64,000 nt of DNA from positions 224,112-288,111 of the forward strand of contig JAKAHC010000002.1 of the NCBI GenBank assembly GCA_021815305.1. The letters run 5' to 3'. Position numbers and translations under genes: made by a program. The stretch's first letter is position 1. Each line of letters begins with the position of its first letter. The notes under the pieces are model-generated. The model was not told where the DNA came from and ran no database searches. It was given only the letters and a program-made list of their open reading frames with translations. Shown here one piece after another: positions 39,864 through 46,982 of the stretch. Origin of the DNA: Deltaproteobacteria bacterium. Its GTDB lineage: Bacteria > Desulfobacterota > Deferrimicrobia > Deferrimicrobiales > Deferrimicrobiaceae.

Positions 39864-40553
39864 TTACCCCCCCGCCCCTCCCTTGCGGAACGTGATCGTC
39901 ACGCGGACGTTCGTGACCCCCACGATTCTTGCGTGCATTTCGCGCAATTCCAGCCGCGCCGTCGTCGTGTACGTCTGCGTGTCGGTGTCCGGGAGGATCT
40001 CCTCGGTGGAGACGGACGACATCTTGGAGAGTTCGTCGGGTAGCGCCTCGACCTCGACTTCCGGGGGAACGATCGCGATTTTTGCGATCCGCTTACGGAC
40101 CGCCGGCCCCCCCCCGATCCTCGCCACCACGGGAAAAACGCGCCGCACCGTCTTTTCGAGGACCACCTCGACGGCCGAAGGGAAGATCCGCTGCACCGTG
40201 GTTCCCGCGGGCACCTTCACCGTGCGGTCGTCCAGGGTGATGTACTGGCGTCCCAAACGCCCGCCCGAGAGGTCGATCGAGGCGGAGATGTCCGACGGGC
40301 GGAGTCCCGACAGGAGGGAGGCAGGCCCCGACACCCGGACCTCCACCTGTCGCTCCACCTTGTTGATGACCGTCAGCCCCTTCGGCACATCGCGGATCTC
40401 CAGGGGGACGTTGAACCCCACCAGCACCTTGCTCTCGCCGGCGACGAACCACCATGCCACGATCGCCAGCCCCAGGGCGAGGAACTTCAGGCCGACGTTG
40501 TGGCTTGCGAATCGTTTCAGCACCCGCGGAAGGTCGGAGACGCTCCCTCTCAC
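39864..40553 (-). CDS. cdaR: CdaR/YbbR-like regulator of diadenylate cyclase.
   Basis: An N-terminal TM segment is followed by YbbR-like repeats. The GTG start overlaps the cdaA stop (GTGA). Confidence 0.7.
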   Translation of the reverse strand: MRGSVSDLPRVLKRFASHNVGLKFLALGLAIVAWWFVAGESKVLVGFNVPLEIRDVPKGLTVINKVERQVEVRVSGPASLLSGLRPSDISASIDLSGGRLGRQYITLDDRTVKVPAGTTVQRIFPSAVEVVLEKTVRRVFPVVARIGGGPAVRKRIAKIAIVPPEVEVEALPDELSKMSSVSTEEILPDTDTQTYTTTARLELREMHARIVGVTNVRVTITFRKGGAGG

Positions 40554-41320
40554 TTTCCCTTCCTCCCCCCGCCGCCGAACAGCTTGTCCAGCGTATCCCG
40601 CAGTTGCTCCGGCGTATCCGTTTTCCTTGCCCCGAGGTTGGAGAAGACGGTGACGTTCCCCGTTTCCTCGGAAACGACGACGGCCACGGCGTCCGTGTCC
40701 ATCGTGACGCCGAACGCCGCCCGGTGGCGCGTCCCCATCTTGATCGTCTCCAGCGACTCCGCGGGGATCGGCAGAATCACCCCGGCGGCGGCGATCCGGT
40801 TCCCGCGCAGGACCACCGCACCGTCGTGGACCGGCGATCCCGGGGCGAAGATCGCCGCCGCGAGGTCATGGGAATAGAGGGCGTCCATCCTCCGGCCGTG
40901 CTCCACGAACTCCTCGAGCCCCATCTCCCGCTCCAGGAGCAGGATGGCGCCGATGCGTTCCCGCGCGAAGTGAAATGCGCTGAAGGAGAGCTGCTCGATC
41001 AGGTCCGGATCGGGGGCGTTCCCCTTCCCCCCGAGAATCCGCCACTGGCCGATCCTGGCCAGCCCCCTGCGGATCTCGTTCTGGAAGACGACCACCAGCA
41101 CGACGAGGATGTTTCCCAGGACGTTCCCCACCAGCCACTGGAAGGTCACCATGCCGGCCTTTTTGGAGATGACGTACAGCACCATGAGCGCCAGCAGGCC
41201 GAAGAGCATCTGGACGGCCCGCGTGCCGCGGATGAACAGGAGGATCCAATAGATGATGAACGCCACCAGAAGGACGTCGAGGACATCCACCGCTCGGATG
41301 GGAGGAATCGCGTCGATCAC
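40550..41320 (-). CDS. cdaA: Diadenylate cyclase (c-di-AMP synthase) CdaA.
   Basis: Three N-terminal TM helices precede a DAC domain (DGAVVL...RHRAA.G..E.TDA..VVVSEETG). The GTG start overlaps the folP stop. Confidence 0.85.
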   Translation of the reverse strand: MIDAIPPIRAVDVLDVLLVAFIIYWILLFIRGTRAVQMLFGLLALMVLYVISKKAGMVTFQWLVGNVLGNILVVLVVVFQNEIRRGLARIGQWRILGGKGNAPDPDLIEQLSFSAFHFARERIGAILLLEREMGLEEFVEHGRRMDALYSHDLAAAIFAPGSPVHDGAVVLRGNRIAAAGVILPIPAESLETIKMGTRHRAAFGVTMDTDAVAVVVSEETGNVTVFSNLGARKTDTPEQLRDTLDKLFGGGGRKGK

Positions 41321-42480
41321 GCCATGGGCCCCCGGATCGCTTCCGCCACCCTTACCACCTCCCGCATCTCCCTCACGTCGTGCACGCGCACGACGTGCGC
41401 GCCGTGCAGCACCGCCGCGGTCACCGAAGCCGCAGTGCCGTAGGCCCTGTCCGCCGCCGGCTTCCCGGTAAGCGTGCCCAGGAACCCCTTTCTCGACGGG
41501 CCGAATACGATCGGCCGGCCGAGGACCCGGAGCTCCTCGAGGTGCCGGTGCAGCTCCAGGTTGTCCTCGAACCGCTTCCCGAATCCGATGCCGGGGTCGA
41601 CGAGGATCCGCTCCCGCTCGATCCCCGCCTCCACCGCCGCTTCGATCCGGTCCGAGAGCTCCCCGAGGAGCTCATCGAACAGCGAATCGTAGTGCGGCGC
41701 CTCCTGCATCGTCTCGGGGGTTCCCCGGCGATGCATCAGCACCACGGCGCACCCCGCATCCCGCACGATGTCCGCCATCCCGGGGTCGTCCGCGAGGGCG
41801 CTCGTGTCGTTGACGATCCTGGCGCCTGCCGCGATCGCCTCCCGAGCTACGGAAGCCTTCGTCGTGTCCACGGAGAGGACCGCGTCCGTCCCTTCGGCAA
41901 GTCCCCGCAGCACCGGGATCACCCGGGACAGCTCCTCTTCCGGGGACACCGGCCTGGAACCGGGCCGGGAGGATTCCCCTCCCACGTCGAGGATCTCCGC
42001 ACCCTCGGAGGCCATCGCGATCCCCCGCGTCACCGCCTCCGCCGCGGACCGGTAGGCGCCGCCGTCGGAGAAGGAATCGGGCGTGACGTTCACGATCCCC
42101 ATGATCCTTGGGGTGCCGGAAAGGTCGATGCCGCCGTCGGGGATGGGAACGTGGAAAGCCCTGGTGAAGCTCTTCGCAACCGACACGGCCGAAGCCCGCA
42201 AGACCCCTGCCCACGGAGCCTTCCTCGCCCATTCCTCCGCCTGTGCGAACGACGAAGGGGAGAACAGCAGGTGCGATCCGGTCCGAAGCACCGGGATCCC
42301 CTCCGCCGCCAGCAACCGCTCGATCCGGGGGTCCCCGGCGTCTTCCAGCTCCAGGGGAGCGGCCGCCACCAGCGCCCGCAGGTTCCGGAGAAACGCTTCC
42401 GCAGGCCCGGTTTGCGCTCCGAAAGCGCGCAGCCGGTCGCGGACCGTCGCGGGGTCGCCCGCCGGAAAGACCCGGACCAC
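41317..42480 (-). CDS. folP: Dihydropteroate synthase with an approximately 125-aa N-terminal extension of unknown function. The start is uncertain.
   Basis: The pterin-binding core MGIVNVTPDSFSDGG...DVGGESSRPG...NDTS...GIGFGK begins at the ATG at 42102. The same frame stays open, with high GC3, back to a GTG at 42480 or a TTG at 42495 just after the ftsH stop. Confidence 0.7.
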   Translation of the reverse strand: MVRVFPAGDPATVRDRLRAFGAQTGPAEAFLRNLRALVAAAPLELEDAGDPRIERLLAAEGIPVLRTGSHLLFSPSSFAQAEEWARKAPWAGVLRASAVSVAKSFTRAFHVPIPDGGIDLSGTPRIMGIVNVTPDSFSDGGAYRSAAEAVTRGIAMASEGAEILDVGGESSRPGSRPVSPEEELSRVIPVLRGLAEGTDAVLSVDTTKASVAREAIAAGARIVNDTSALADDPGMADIVRDAGCAVVLMHRRGTPETMQEAPHYDSLFDELLGELSDRIEAAVEAGIERERILVDPGIGFGKRFEDNLELHRHLEELRVLGRPIVFGPSRKGFLGTLTGKPAADRAYGTAASVTAAVLHGAHVVRVHDVREMREVVRVAEAIRGPMA

Positions 42481-42497
42481 CCCGTTTCGAGACAATG

Positions 42498-44351
42498 TCA
42501 GGCGGGGGCTCCTGCCTGCGCCGGCGATCCCCCGGGGCCCTCCGGAAGGACCGCCTCCTGGATGATCCGTTGGATCTCCGCCCCGTCGACCACTTCCTTC
42601 TCCAGGAGCCGTTTCGCCACGTTGTGCAGGATCTCGATGTGCGTGGAAAGCAGGGTCTTCGCCCGCTCGTAGCCGCCGTTGACGAATCCCCGCACTTCCT
42701 GGTCGATGTCCCGGGCGGTCGCCTCGCTGTAGTCCTGATGGCGCGTGAAATCGCGGCCCAGGAAAATCGCCTCCTGCTTCTGGCCGAACGTCACCGGCCC
42801 CAGCTTCTCGCTCATTCCCCACTCGCAGACCATCTTCCGCGCAAGGGCCGTGGCGCGCTCCAGGTCGTTCCCCGCACCGGTGGTGAGCTCGCCGCGCACC
42901 AATTCCTCGGCGACGCGTCCCCCCATCAGGATGGTGATGTTGTTGTTCAGGTACTCCTTCGAGTAGGTGTGCCGCTCGTCGATCGGCAGCTGCTGCGTGA
43001 TTCCGAGGGCCATCCCGCGCGGGATGATGCTCACCTTGTGGATCGGATCGGCGCCGGGGGTGAGCGTGGCGACGATCGCGTGGCCCGCCTCGTGGTAGGC
43101 GGTGGATCGCTTCTCCTCGTCGCTGATGATCATCGAGCGCCGCTCGCGCCCCATCATCACCTTGTCCTTTGCGCTCTCGAAGCAGTCCATCGTGACCTTG
43201 GCCAGGTTGGTGCTCGCGGCGTGCAGCGCCGCCTCGTTGGCGAGGTTGGCGAGGTCGGCGCCCGTGAACCCCGGGGTCCCCTTCGCCAGCACCTCGAGGT
43301 TGACGTCTTCGGCCAGCGGGATCTTCCGCACGTGAACGCCCAGGATCTGCTCCCTGCCCTTTACGTCGGGCTTGGGGACCACCACCTGCCGGTCGAACCG
43401 CCCGGGTCGCATCAGCGCCGGATCGAGCACGTCGGGCCGGTTCGTCGCGGCGATGAGGATGAGCCCCTCGGTCGACTCGAAGCCGTCCATCTCGACGAGG
43501 AGCTGGTTCAACGTCTGCTCCCGCTCGTCGTGGCCGCCTCCGAGTCCCGCCCCGCGGTGCCGACCGACCGCGTCGATCTCGTCGATGAAGATGATGCAGG
43601 GAGCGGATTTCTTCCCCTGGATGAAGAGGTCGCGCACCCGCGCCGCGCCGACACCCACGAACATCTCCACGAAGTCGGACCCGCTGATGGAGAAGAACGG
43701 GACCCCGGCTTCCCCGGCGATGGCCCGCGCCAGGAGCGTTTTCCCCGTGCCGGGGGAACCGACGAGCAGCACCCCCTTCGGGATGCGGCCCCCAAGCTTG
43801 GTGAACTTCTTGGGGTCCTTGAGGAACGCGATGATTTCCTGCAGCTCCTCCTTGGCCTCCTCGATGCCGGCCACGTCGGCGAAGGTCACCTTGTTCGTCG
43901 ATTCGGTCAAAAGCTTCGCCCGGCTTTTCCCGAACGACATCGCCTTCCCGCCGCCCGCCTGCATCTGGCGCATGAAGAAAACCCACACGCCGATCAGCAG
44001 CAGCATCGGCAGCCAGGAGACCAGCAGCGACATGTACCACGGGTTGTCGTCGATGGGTTTGGCCGTGATCTGCACGTTCTTTTCGCGCAGGTTCTTCACG
44101 AGCTCGGGATCGTCCGGGGCATACGTGTGGAACGACTTCTTCTCCTTGCCGGCGTTGTCCACGTACTTCCCGGTGATCTCCTGCCCCTTGATGGTGACCT
44201 CTTTCACCTTGCCGGAGTCCACCGCCTGGAGGAAGGAGGAGAAAGAGATCTCCTCGTGCTCGACCTTGTGGGTCTTGAACGTGTTGAAGAGGAAGACCAT
44301 CGCAAGCGCGATGAGCATCCAGAGGGCGAGATTGCGATAGAACTGGTTCAA
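42498..44351 (-). CDS. ftsH: ATP-dependent zinc metalloprotease FtsH.
   Basis: Two TM helices are followed by an AAA module ([13 protein letters not shown], the second region of homology) and the HEAGHAI zinc site. A TTG start at 44351 has AGGAGA 9 nt upstream. Confidence 0.9.
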
Positions 44352-44476
44352 GTTTCAGAGTCTCCTGTGGATGGGGATATCCCGTCGATCGGGACTCTCC
44401 TCCCATTCTTGTTATTTGATGCGCCGCGGCTAACTTACGGATCCCTTTCCTATCTTAGCACACGGGGGCGCGGTGT

Positions 44477-45911: not shown

Positions 45912-46982
45912 CTACTTCTTGAGGATCTTGCCCTGTGTCGGAGGAGTCGGTCCCTCATTCAAAACACGCCAGTACAGTGCGGCGGACATCGGGGATGTGC
46001 CCCCCGAGTCCAGGACCGATCGCACCGCAAAATACACCTTTTCGTTTTTGGACATGCCATAGGTCACGGGATTGAAGTCGATAAAATTCCCGGAGAGGGA
46101 GGATACCATGACGGAAACCGACCCGGCAGGAAACGCCGGGTCGGTGCTCCAGTAGATGTTGTACCGAACGGTACGGCCCGCTTCGAGGGGAGTTCCATCG
46201 GAGTAGGTCGTTATGCCATCCCAGGATAATTCCCATATCTCCGTGGCGGGAGCGGATGGCGCGGCGGGCGAGGCGGACGAGATCGGTCCGGTGATGCCGA
46301 TATTCGCAGGCACCGCCGGAATCCGTGCCGGCACGTCGACAACGTTCACGCTCTTGGTCGCCGTCTTTGTGGTCCCGCCGCTGGTGTAGCCGGCCGTCAC
46401 CGTCACGCTCTGGGTCGCCGTCACCTGCGCCGCCGTCAGCACCCCGCTCGAACTGATCGTCGCGTAACCGGTCGACACGCTCCAGGTCGGGGACACCGAG
46501 GTGGTCGTGTTGTCGCTCCAGGTTGCCGTCGCCGTGTAGGTGGAGGTCGACCCCTCGTTCACGGAAGAGGCGCCGGCGATCGACAGGCCGCTCAAAGTCG
46601 GGGCTGGAGGAGTCACTACCGGTACGACCCACGCGTACGCGGGGGAAAGCGCCGATACCTCGCCCGTGCTCAGCGCGGCGCTCGCCGTGAAGTAGGCGGT
46701 CGCTCCGCGTGTCATTCCCTGCACGTCCGGGTCGAAGGTCGTTGAAGTGGCGGTCAGCCCCGTGGCGATGGGATGGAGGGACGTCAGGCTTGCGCTTGCT
46801 GACCAGTACACCGAGTACGTGACGGTGATTCCCCCGCCGATCGTCGTGCCATCCGTGTAGGTCGTGACCGGGTCCCAGGAAACGGTCCGGGTTTCCGCCG
46901 ATGCGTTTTCACGGAGCGCAAGGAGGAGACCGAGGGTCAAAAAAACCAAGGACGCCTTCCGAAAGCCCCTCGCCCTCGACAT
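45912..46982 (-). CDS. Secreted Ser/Thr-rich protein with fibronectin-III-like modules at both ends.
   Basis: A signal peptide is followed by a W-D-P..Y.DGT...Y.VYW module near the N-terminus and another near the C-terminus. The centre is S/T-rich. The ATG abuts the upstream lipoprotein stop (TAAATG). Confidence 0.55.
   Translation of the reverse strand: MSRARGFRKASLVFLTLGLLLALRENASAETRTVSWDPVTTYTDGTTIGGGITVTYSVYWSASASLTSLHPIATGLTATSTTFDPDVQGMTRGATAYFTASAALSTGEVSALSPAYAWVVPVVTPPAPTLSGLSIAGASSVNEGSTSTYTATATWSDNTTTSVSPTWSVSTGYATISSSGVLTAAQVTATQSVTVTAGYTSGGTTKTATKSVNVVDVPARIPAVPANIGITGPISSASPAAPSAPATEIWELSWDGITTYSDGTPLEAGRTVRYNIYWSTDPAFPAGSVSVMVSSLSGNFIDFNPVTYGMSKNEKVYFAVRSVLDSGGTSPMSAALYWRVLNEGPTPPTQGKILKK

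What the first reader, a model, noticed from the sequence alone, without database searches (positions are those of the whole stretch)
42090..42497. FolP appears fused to an approximately 125-aa N-terminal extension of unknown function
The canonical FolP N-terminus (IDLSGTPRIMGIVNVTPDSFSDGG) starts near the ATG at 42102. The reading frame continues upstream without a stop, and with coding-like GC3, to a GTG or TTG within 20 nt of the ftsH stop. The extra segment (VRVFPAGDPATVRDRLRAFGAQTGPAEAFLRNLRALVAAAPLELEDAGDPRIERLLAAEGIPVLRTGSHLLFSPSSFAQAEEWARKAPWAGVLRASAVSVAKSF) does not resemble FolB or FolK, the usual FolP fusion partners. If folP instead started at the internal ATG, about 395 nt of non-coding DNA would be left. 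That gap is unusual for this tightly packed strand and has a weak SD.
Basis: seen in the sequence. Interest (0 to 1): 0.5.

Follow-up and report, generated by a model that had tools for sequence, protein, structure and literature searches.

The report
FolP with a conserved extra N-terminal domain
The folate-pathway enzyme FolP in this uncultured bacterium carries a real, conserved extra domain of about 108 amino acids at its front end, which is probably a divergent cousin of the reductase domain fused to FolP in Helicobacter-like bacteria, so this is an unannotated variant of a known fusion and not a new kind of system.

The parts
41317..42480 (-). folP coding sequence, 387 aa plus stop (long form)
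   Evidence: ORF and translation. An identical 387-aa protein is called in GCA_021818205.1 and in an ENA assembly. TIGR01496 DHPS scores 315 bits against a cutoff of 163.
42478..42480 (-). GTG start codon of folP
   Evidence: Aligned position 1 is M or V in 84 of 96 relatives and is followed by [IV]-R-V. In eight loci the start lies 16-58 nt after the ftsH stop, and it is ATG in L083-L085 and L087.
42493..42495 (-). Alternative in-frame TTG, which would give 392 aa; probably not used
   Evidence: A 392-aa member (P0133) sits in the same 90% cluster. The TTG is absent from the closest relative L086.
42481..42497 (-). 17-nt ftsH-folP spacer with a weak G-rich Shine-Dalgarno-like stretch
42211..42480 (-). 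N-terminal alpha/beta domain, residues 1-90 (b1 a1 a2 b2 a3 b3 b4 a4)
   Evidence: AlphaFold model of the domain: pLDDT 86.9, pTM 0.77. In the full-length model these residues have pLDDT 91-95. Invariant R3 and R16; near-invariant V4, G21, L34, R35, L57, P63, S74, S76.
42157..42207 (-). Linker helix a5, residues 92-108, joining the extra domain to the barrel
   Evidence: Helix 92-108 in the domain model and 92-104 in the full-length model. R103 is near-invariant.
42106..42156 (-). Canonical DHPS N-terminal beta-hairpin, residues 109-125 (equivalent to E. coli residues 1-17)
   Evidence: Strands 110-113 and 116-119. E. coli 1aj0 residue 10 aligns to residue 118. NF008625 aligns from residue 118.
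42100..42102 (-).
   Evidence: Invariant in 91 sequences. The same Met is internal in E. coli DHPS.
41380..42102 (-). Pterin_bind (PF00809) TIM-barrel catalytic domain, residues 127-367
42498..44351 (-). ftsH, the upstream gene of the operon
   Evidence: ORF. Pfam FtsH_ext, AAA and Peptidase_M41 on the identical locus.
40550..41320 (-). cdaA (diadenylate cyclase), whose start overlaps the folP stop by 4 nt

Best explanation
folP encodes a genuine two-domain dihydropteroate synthase. Translation starts at GTG 42480, 17 nt after ftsH. Residues 1-90 form a compact alpha/beta domain. Helix 92-108 links it to the normal N-terminal hairpin and TIM barrel (109-387), which keeps every catalytic residue, so DHPS activity is retained. 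These points are shown or strongly supported.

The extra domain is ancestral to this clade of uncultured bacteria related to Candidatus Deferrimicrobiaceae. It evolves about three times faster than the core and was later deleted cleanly in one nested lineage, so it is an accessory and is not required for DHPS chemistry.

The following steps are inferred. The domain is most likely a strongly diverged descendant of the widespread FolP N-terminal domain ('type B'), which is found on the FolP of Campylobacterales and of many anaerobes. In H. pylori that domain is reported to give flavin-dependent reduction of dihydropteroate, bypassing FolA.

My working mechanism is that the domain sits on the barrel end where the chain enters, away from the active-site loops. 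From there it either still reduces the DHPS product (about 0.3) or, having lost the type-B signature helix, survives as a stabilising or partner-binding remnant (about 0.4). The remainder covers some other ligand-binding role.
For: Real coding domain:
- Codon-position GC.
- More than 90 clusters of 383-393 aa cover 96-100% of the query.
- N-domain mean pairwise identity is 41%, against 70% for the core, and the start is conserved.
- dN/dS is 0.40 for the extension and 0.14 for the core, with third-position excess.
- The same tilS-ftsH-folP-cdaA-ybbR-glmM layout appears in most long-form loci (cdaA/ybbR are missing in L089 and glmM in L088), with a 16-58 nt ftsH-folP spacer.
- AlphaFold gives pLDDT 86.9 and pTM 0.77 for the domain alone, and pLDDT 91.7 and pTM 0.91 for the full length.

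Intact DHPS:
-.

Ancestral presence, then loss:
- Bootstrapped NJ tree of the cores: ingroup 98%; window subclade plus short forms 85%; long forms of that subclade alone monophyletic in 0% of replicates.
- In the short form L005 the folP start overlaps the ftsH end.

Link to type B:
- Type B was found in L035 (405-aa FolP in an ftsH-x-folP-cdaA-ybbR layout) and in 372 metagenome relatives.
- The type-B HMM hits the N-terminus of Sulfurovum mangrovi FolP at E=8e-34, in a lysC-hobA-holB-folP context.
- hhalign of the window family against type B, with the shared FolP hairpin removed: score 30-31, probability 61-76%, 77 collinear columns. Column-shuffled controls give 10.4 +/- 1.9 (max 16.3), and no block-shuffled control reached 31.
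- Residues conserved in both families: R3, E-A in helix 1, G-V, A-R-G before strand 4, and Q80.
Against: - The link to type B is only moderate. HMM-against-sequence searches in both directions find nothing.
- With 25-column blocks the shuffled score is already 26.1 (max 29.8), so most of the signal lies in the first ~40 residues.
- The near-invariant type-B motifs (ANI[IL]KQ[ED]xLSxG[GA][DE]xAV and QPFGL) are not conserved in the window family.
- No structure or model of type B could be compared.
- The H. pylori sequence itself was not examined, and the primary paper was not held.
- Faster evolution and a natural deletion fit a dispensable domain better than an essential reductase.
- Whether the genome has folA is unknown. 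None is in the window, which is uninformative.
Confidence: 0.6

Rival explanations
1. The extension is a real domain but is unrelated to the Campylobacterales-type (DHFR2) domain. It would be a clade-specific acquisition with a BMC-like alpha/beta fold, acting as a structural cap, an oligomerisation or partner-binding module, or a small-ligand sensor on the barrel end where the chain enters.
For: - No Pfam, NCBIfam or PDB sequence hit.
- phmmer against 1.84 billion representatives finds only family members plus a few partial, multi-stretch matches to unrelated longer proteins.
- Type-B motifs are absent, and HMM-against-sequence searches do not connect the families.
- Other phyla carry FolP N-terminal extensions with no detectable similarity (L009, L040, L047, L053, L072), so such additions seem to arise repeatedly.
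- Conserved Arg and Ser residues (R3, R16, R35, S74, S76, S77) could form an anion-binding site. This last point is inference only.
Against: - The hhalign score of 30-31 exceeds every shuffled control, with a collinear 77-column alignment.
- The domain has the same position, a similar size and, by inspection, the same order of helices and strands as type B.
- Foldseek finds nothing significant (best E=0.54), so the BMC resemblance is weak.
Confidence: 0.33
2. The 380-395 nt upstream of Met127 are a non-coding leader (regulatory RNA or spacer), and folP starts at the internal ATG 42102 or nearby. The long ORF would then be an artefact of high GC content.
For: - Five of six frames are stop-free in this stretch, and spurious long ORFs abound in the window.
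- Some gene callers did call a 261-aa version of this very gene (P0134), and shorter versions in relatives (P0035).
Against: - Amino-acid conservation, a conserved start and dN/dS below 1.
- Confident models built from the alignment.
- Starting at Met127 would delete the canonical N-terminal hairpin, which aligns to E. coli residues 10-17.
- No Rfam match, promoter or terminator in 41800-42800.
Confidence: 0.02
3. The extension is a separate small gene, joined to folP in this assembly by a frameshift or a lost stop codon.
For: One cluster contains a 75-aa and a 290-aa product on the same contig (P0139 and P0141), which looks like a split call.
Against: - The frame is continuous in the window, in an independent ENA assembly and in seven other loci.
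- It is also continuous in more than 90 clusters.
- The linker helix and hairpin are contiguous in the model, and pTM is 0.91.
Confidence: 0.02

Closest known systems
Monofunctional dihydropteroate synthase FolP (E. coli type; TIGR01496, PF00809)
   Different: It carries 108 extra N-terminal residues, which no solved DHPS has.
Campylobacterales-type FolP with an N-terminal domain (SEED 'Alternative dihydrofolate reductase 2'; H. pylori DHPS/dihydropteroate reductase, Levin et al. 2007, PMID 17416665)
   Same: - An extra domain of about 110-125 aa lies directly N-terminal to DHPS.
- Total length is similar (Sulfurovum 381 aa; window 387 aa).
- Profile-profile similarity gives probability 61-76%.
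- A few conserved positions are shared.
- Neither domain is modelled in Pfam, NCBIfam or PDB.
   Different: - The signature motifs ANI[IL]KQ..LS.GG/A.D/E.AV and QPFGL are missing.
- HMM-against-sequence searches do not connect the families.
- The loop between strands 3 and 4 is shorter.
- The window family keeps the canonical DHPS hairpin, which Sulfurovum lacks.
- Flavin binding and reductase activity are untested here.
HPPK-DHPS (FolK-FolP) bifunctional enzymes (yeast FOL1 2bmb, Francisella 3mcm, Plasmodium 5z79, Arabidopsis 7mpy)
   Same: A second domain is fused to the N-terminus of the DHPS barrel.
Bacterial microcompartment (BMC) shell domain, permuted type (GrpU, 4olp)
   Different: Sequence identity is 13%. 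There is no PF00936 hit. The Foldseek E-value is 0.54. The domain is fused to an enzyme and not a free shell protein. There is no microcompartment gene context.

Membership tests
Dihydropteroate synthase (FolP/DHPS) | Pterin_bind / TIGR01496 profile match above the curated cutoff | tested here: met
   PF00809 scores 275 bits (cutoff 25.5). TIGR01496 scores 315 bits (cutoff 162.6).
Dihydropteroate synthase (FolP/DHPS) | Conserved substrate-binding residues (E. coli N22, D96, N115, D185, K221, R255, H257; this residue list is from my own knowledge of DHPS structures) | tested here: met
   N131, D205, N224, D295, K331, R365 and H367 are invariant in 91 sequences. The mapping to E. coli numbering comes from the 1aj0/5u0v alignment.
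Dihydropteroate synthase (FolP/DHPS) | TIM-barrel fold superposable on solved DHPS | tested here: met
HPPK-DHPS or DHNA-HPPK-DHPS fusion | The N-terminal partner is HPPK (PF01288) or FolB (PF02152) | tested here: not met
DHFR2-type FolP (type-B N-terminal domain, Campylobacterales / H. pylori) | An extra domain of about 110-125 aa immediately N-terminal to DHPS | tested here: met
   Residues 1-108. Sulfurovum FolP is 381 aa and its domain occupies residues about 4-115.
DHFR2-type FolP (type-B N-terminal domain, Campylobacterales / H. pylori) | Sequence membership in the type-B profile | tested here: inconclusive
   The type-B HMM finds no window-family locus at E<=10. The window-family HMM scores 1.0 bit on Sulfurovum. 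hhalign gives probability 61-76% and score 30-31, above all shuffled controls.
DHFR2-type FolP (type-B N-terminal domain, Campylobacterales / H. pylori) | Signature motifs ANI[IL]KQ[ED]xLSxG[GA][DE]xAV and QPFGL | tested here: not met
   The aligned positions in the window family read A..L...L..RGIP.ARG with variable polar positions, and there is no QPFGL.
DHFR2-type FolP (type-B N-terminal domain, Campylobacterales / H. pylori) | Bound flavin and NAD(P)H-dependent dihydropteroate reduction | not testable with these tools
   This needs purified protein. The property is reported for H. pylori only, as cited in PMC1971073.
DHFR2-type FolP (type-B N-terminal domain, Campylobacterales / H. pylori) | The genome lacks folA, so the fusion substitutes for DHFR | not testable with these tools
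   Only 64 kb of the genome is available. No FolA or ThyA homologue is in the window, which says nothing about the rest of the genome.
BMC shell protein (PF00936) | Profile match to the BMC domain and a microcompartment gene context | tested here: not met
   No Pfam hit. The neighbours are ftsH, cdaA, ybbR and glmM. There is only fold resemblance.

The most novel reading that the evidence does not exclude
The window family and the widespread type-B domain together form one large, unmodelled superfamily of FolP N-terminal domains with a BMC-like alpha/beta fold. The Deferrimicrobia-like branch has rebuilt the active surface (new invariant R3 and R16 and a conserved S-x-S-S/Q cluster in place of the ANIIKQEML helix). 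It would then perform a different job from the H. pylori enzyme, for example pterin reduction with another cofactor or allosteric sensing of an anionic metabolite. If so, this model would also be the first structural view of the DHFR2 domain class.
Probability: 0.15. Interest if true: 0.6.

Novelty: new variant of a known kind. Interest (0 to 1): 0.4.

Why it matters
FolP is the sulfonamide target and a signature gene for de novo folate synthesis. Fusions on FolP have revealed missing pathway steps before, as with the FolA bypass in H. pylori.

This work shows three things:
- Public annotations of this gene disagree. Versions of 261, 387 and 392 aa are called for the same sequence.
- A whole clade of uncultured sediment and soil bacteria carries an N-terminal domain that no domain library models.
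- The much larger type-B FolP N-terminal domain family (hundreds of metagenomic relatives, including Campylobacterales) is equally absent from Pfam, NCBIfam and the PDB.

If the window's domain is an active reductase, metabolic reconstructions of these MAGs that report a missing folA would be wrong. If it is a degenerate remnant, it documents how such a fusion decays and is finally deleted in a sister lineage.

Tried and rejected
- Searching the 5.8-billion-protein index with the extension alone found nothing. Searching with the 58-sequence profile found only seven short fragments. Yet the full-length query returned more than 90 proteins that contain the extension. I treat this as a limit of the word index, not as absence.
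- phmmer of the extension against 1.84 billion representatives gave three family members plus four partial, multi-stretch matches to unrelated longer proteins, which I discounted.
- The afdb50 fold library was not available, so AlphaFold-database models of type-B FolPs could not be compared.
- The profile search against PDB sequences gave nothing below E=0.14.
- Rfam and the promoter/terminator scans of the region were empty. This rejects a riboswitch or leader.
- I tested whether the N-terminal extensions of Planctomycetota (L009, L040) and Actinomycetota (L047) FolPs bridge the two families. They do not: probability is 3% or less, apart from the last helix plus hairpin of L009 at 22%.
- Levin et al. 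2007 is not in the library, and a search for HP1232 found nothing. The FMN and N-terminal-domain details for H. pylori therefore rest on the citing paper and on my recollection.
- A search for E. coli FolA and ThyA homologues in the window found none. This is uninformative.

Full report
**What is in the sequence.** The genes around the finding lie on the minus strand in the order tilS, ftsH (42498-44351), folP, cdaA (40550-41320), ybbR, glmM. The window is identical to part of contig JAKAEU010000001.1 of MAG GCA_021818205.1. An in-frame TTG lies at 42495. The quoted peptide is correct.

**Is it more than chance?** The open frame is not evidence. Five of six frames over 42103-42497 have no stop. 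60% of all codon positions in the window lie in stop-free runs of at least 131 codons. The folP frame stays open for 1029 codons through ftsH.
- Composition. GC at codon positions 1/2/3 is 0.72/0.56/0.83 in the folP frame, like the folP core (0.73/0.50/0.89) and its neighbours. The other two frames of the same strand have third-position GC of only 0.71 and 0.57.
- Conservation. A full-length search returned more than 90 protein clusters of 383-393 aa covering 96-100% of the query at 54-80% identity. Across 96 distinct N-termini the extension has 41% mean pairwise identity, against 70% for the core. R16 is invariant, and R3, V4, G21, L34, R35, L57, P63, S74 and S76 are nearly so. Aligned position 1 is M or V in 84 of 96 sequences.
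- Loci. In eight loci with DNA in hand, the start lies 16-58 nt after the ftsH stop. It reads ATG or GTG, then [IV]-R-V either directly or after 2-3 extra residues.
- Selection. Against the closest relative (L086, 80% identity), the extension shows 24/25/42 differences at codon positions 1/2/3 and dN/dS 0.40. The core shows 29/17/89 and 0.14.
- Other features. No Rfam family, promoter or terminator matches the stretch.
The region is therefore translated, as part of folP.

**How long is the extension?** E. coli DHPS (1aj0) residues 10-272 align to residues 118-382. None of 41 solved DHPS sequences reaches below residue 106. NCBIfam PRK11613 aligns from residue 118. Residues 109-125 are the ordinary N-terminal hairpin of DHPS (strands 110-113 and 116-119). 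The extra part is therefore about 108 residues. Met127 is the universal internal Met of the MGI(L/V)N motif and not a start.

**The extra domain.**
- AlphaFold with 58 aligned N-termini gives pLDDT 86.9 and pTM 0.77, with the order b1 a1 a2 b2 a3 b3 b4 a4 followed by a long helix a5.
- The full-length model has pLDDT 91.7 and pTM 0.91. The extension scores 91-95 there, which suggests a fixed orientation on the barrel (the orientation is an inference from pTM).
- It has no Pfam or NCBIfam match, either in the window protein or in 58 relatives, and no PDB sequence match.

**Distribution and history.**
- Source names on the relatives are mostly 'Deltaproteobacteria bacterium' and 'Candidatus Deferrimicrobiaceae bacterium'.
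- The nearest species representatives in the genome collection (L003-L007, L043; core 72-75% identical) lack the domain. Their folP begins at or overlapping the ftsH stop, and two have an in-frame stop just upstream.
- In a bootstrapped NJ tree of the cores the whole group is monophyletic (98%). The window's subclade plus the short forms excludes the second long-form subclade (85%). The long forms of the window's subclade are never monophyletic on their own (0%).
- So the domain was present in the common ancestor and was later deleted cleanly in a nested lineage. It is dispensable for DHPS function there.

**A wider family of FolP N-terminal domains.** Inspecting the other loci turned up L035, a low-GC MAG with a 405-aa FolP in an ftsH-x-folP-cdaA-ybbR layout. 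Its N-terminus carries the motifs ANIIKQEMLSVGGEAAV and QPF[GS]L.
- A metagenome scan seeded with it found 372 relatives. The best 80 match across the whole N-domain at 32-86% identity, and 41 of the 80 have ftsH upstream.
- This 'type B' domain also has no Pfam, NCBIfam or PDB match.
- tblastn against plasmid records hit the folP of Sulfurovum mangrovi (381 aa, in a lysC-hobA-holB-folP context). The type-B HMM matches its N-terminus at E=8e-34.
- The SEED table in de Crecy-Lagard et al. 2007 lists the same gene under FolP and 'Dhfr2' for Helicobacter, Campylobacter, Wolinella and Sulfurimonas, and also for Syntrophus and Desulfuromonas. [quoted passage not shown]
- Type B is therefore the domain class studied in H. 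pylori (Levin et al. 2007). That paper was not held. That it binds FMN through the N-terminal domain is my recollection.

**Is the window's domain related to type B?**
- With the shared DHPS hairpin removed, hhalign gives score 30-31, probability 61-76% and 77 collinear columns.
- Column-shuffled controls score 10.4 +/- 1.9 (max 16.3). Block shuffles of 10 and 15 columns reach at most 23.2 and 29.8.
- Blocks of 25 columns already average 26.1, so most of the signal is in b1-a1-a2.
- HMM-against-sequence searches do not connect the families.
- The type-B signature motifs are not conserved in the window family. A few positions are shared: R3, E-A, G-V, A-R-G and Q80.
- I rate homology at about 0.65.

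**Mechanism.**
- Shown: a two-domain FolP with an intact DHPS barrel, and an accessory domain under weaker purifying selection that was lost once.
- Inferred: descent from the DHFR2-type domain.
- Function: it may still reduce the DHPS product, bypassing FolA (about 0.3). More likely, given the lost motifs, the faster evolution and the natural deletion, it is a stabilising or partner-binding remnant (about 0.4). Another ligand-binding role takes the rest.
- The main rival is an unrelated clade-specific domain with a BMC-like fold (0.33). Non-coding leader and split-gene readings are effectively excluded.

**Verdict.** This is a new variant of a known kind of FolP fusion, and interest is moderate.

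Noticed in passing
window 41317-44406 (minus strand) and the whole window: The folP reading frame stays open for 1029 codons, running out of frame through ftsH. The window has 98 ORFs of at least 250 aa, many overlapping on both strands. Stop-free length is not usable as coding evidence in this genome (64% GC).
   Followed up: yes
window 41317-42495; proteins P0001, P0133, P0134: Public gene calls for this same gene disagree. Products of 387 aa (GTG 42480), 392 aa (probably TTG 42495) and 261 aa (starting near the internal Met127) sit in one 90% cluster. NCBI records of relatives also mix long calls with truncated ones (for example P0035 against P0006).
   Followed up: partly
L003-L007, L043 (genome contigs); L005 625-3367: Close relatives (core 72-75% identical) have a short folP that starts at or overlaps the ftsH stop and lacks the N-terminal domain entirely. 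This is a clean natural deletion nested inside the long-form clade.
   Followed up: yes
L035 2099-3316; L090-L169; L170 2971-4116: A widespread FolP N-terminal domain (motifs ANIIKQEMLSxGGDAAVxRG and QPFGL) is present in hundreds of metagenomic FolPs and in Sulfurovum FolP. It has no Pfam, NCBIfam or PDB match, even though it corresponds to the SEED 'Dhfr2' fusion.
   Followed up: partly
L009, L040 (Planctomycetota), L047 (Actinomycetota), L053, L072 (Alphaproteobacteria): These FolP genes may also carry N-terminal extensions of about 70-110 aa, with no significant similarity to either family. Only the last helix plus hairpin of L009 resembles the window family (probability 22%). Their start codons and neighbouring genes were not checked, and several of these genomes are high-GC. 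If the extensions are real, additions to the FolP N-terminus would have arisen repeatedly.
   Followed up: partly
window 41320-41331 (C-terminus of FolP); alignments A1 and A3: Most relatives end in G-x-E-C or x-x-P-C, with a terminal cysteine. Many also have Cys at the position of residue 113 (V-P-C-R-G-R). The window protein ends in G-P-M-A and has Ile113. Its closest relative P0002 also lacks the terminal Cys.
   Followed up: no
window 41317-41320 and the operon junctions (L001 gene table): The operon is tightly coupled. folP/cdaA, cdaA/ybbR, pdxJ/acpS and acpS/yjeF each overlap by 4 nt. The ftsH-folP spacer is 17 nt, with only a weak G-rich Shine-Dalgarno-like stretch. This suggests translational coupling of folP to ftsH.
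   Followed up: no
window 45912-46982 (minus strand): A 356-aa ORF upstream of tilS has no Pfam hit on record. It has a signal-peptide-like N-terminus and two similar segments (SWDPVTTYTDGT...YSVYWS and SWDGITTYSDGT...YNIYWS) flanking a Thr/Ser-rich middle, so it may be a secreted repeat protein.
   Followed up: no
(tool behaviour): The word-indexed protein search missed all full-length family members when queried with the N-domain alone or with its profile, although they share up to 100% identity with the query. Negative results from that tool for short domain queries should not be read as absence.
   Followed up: partly
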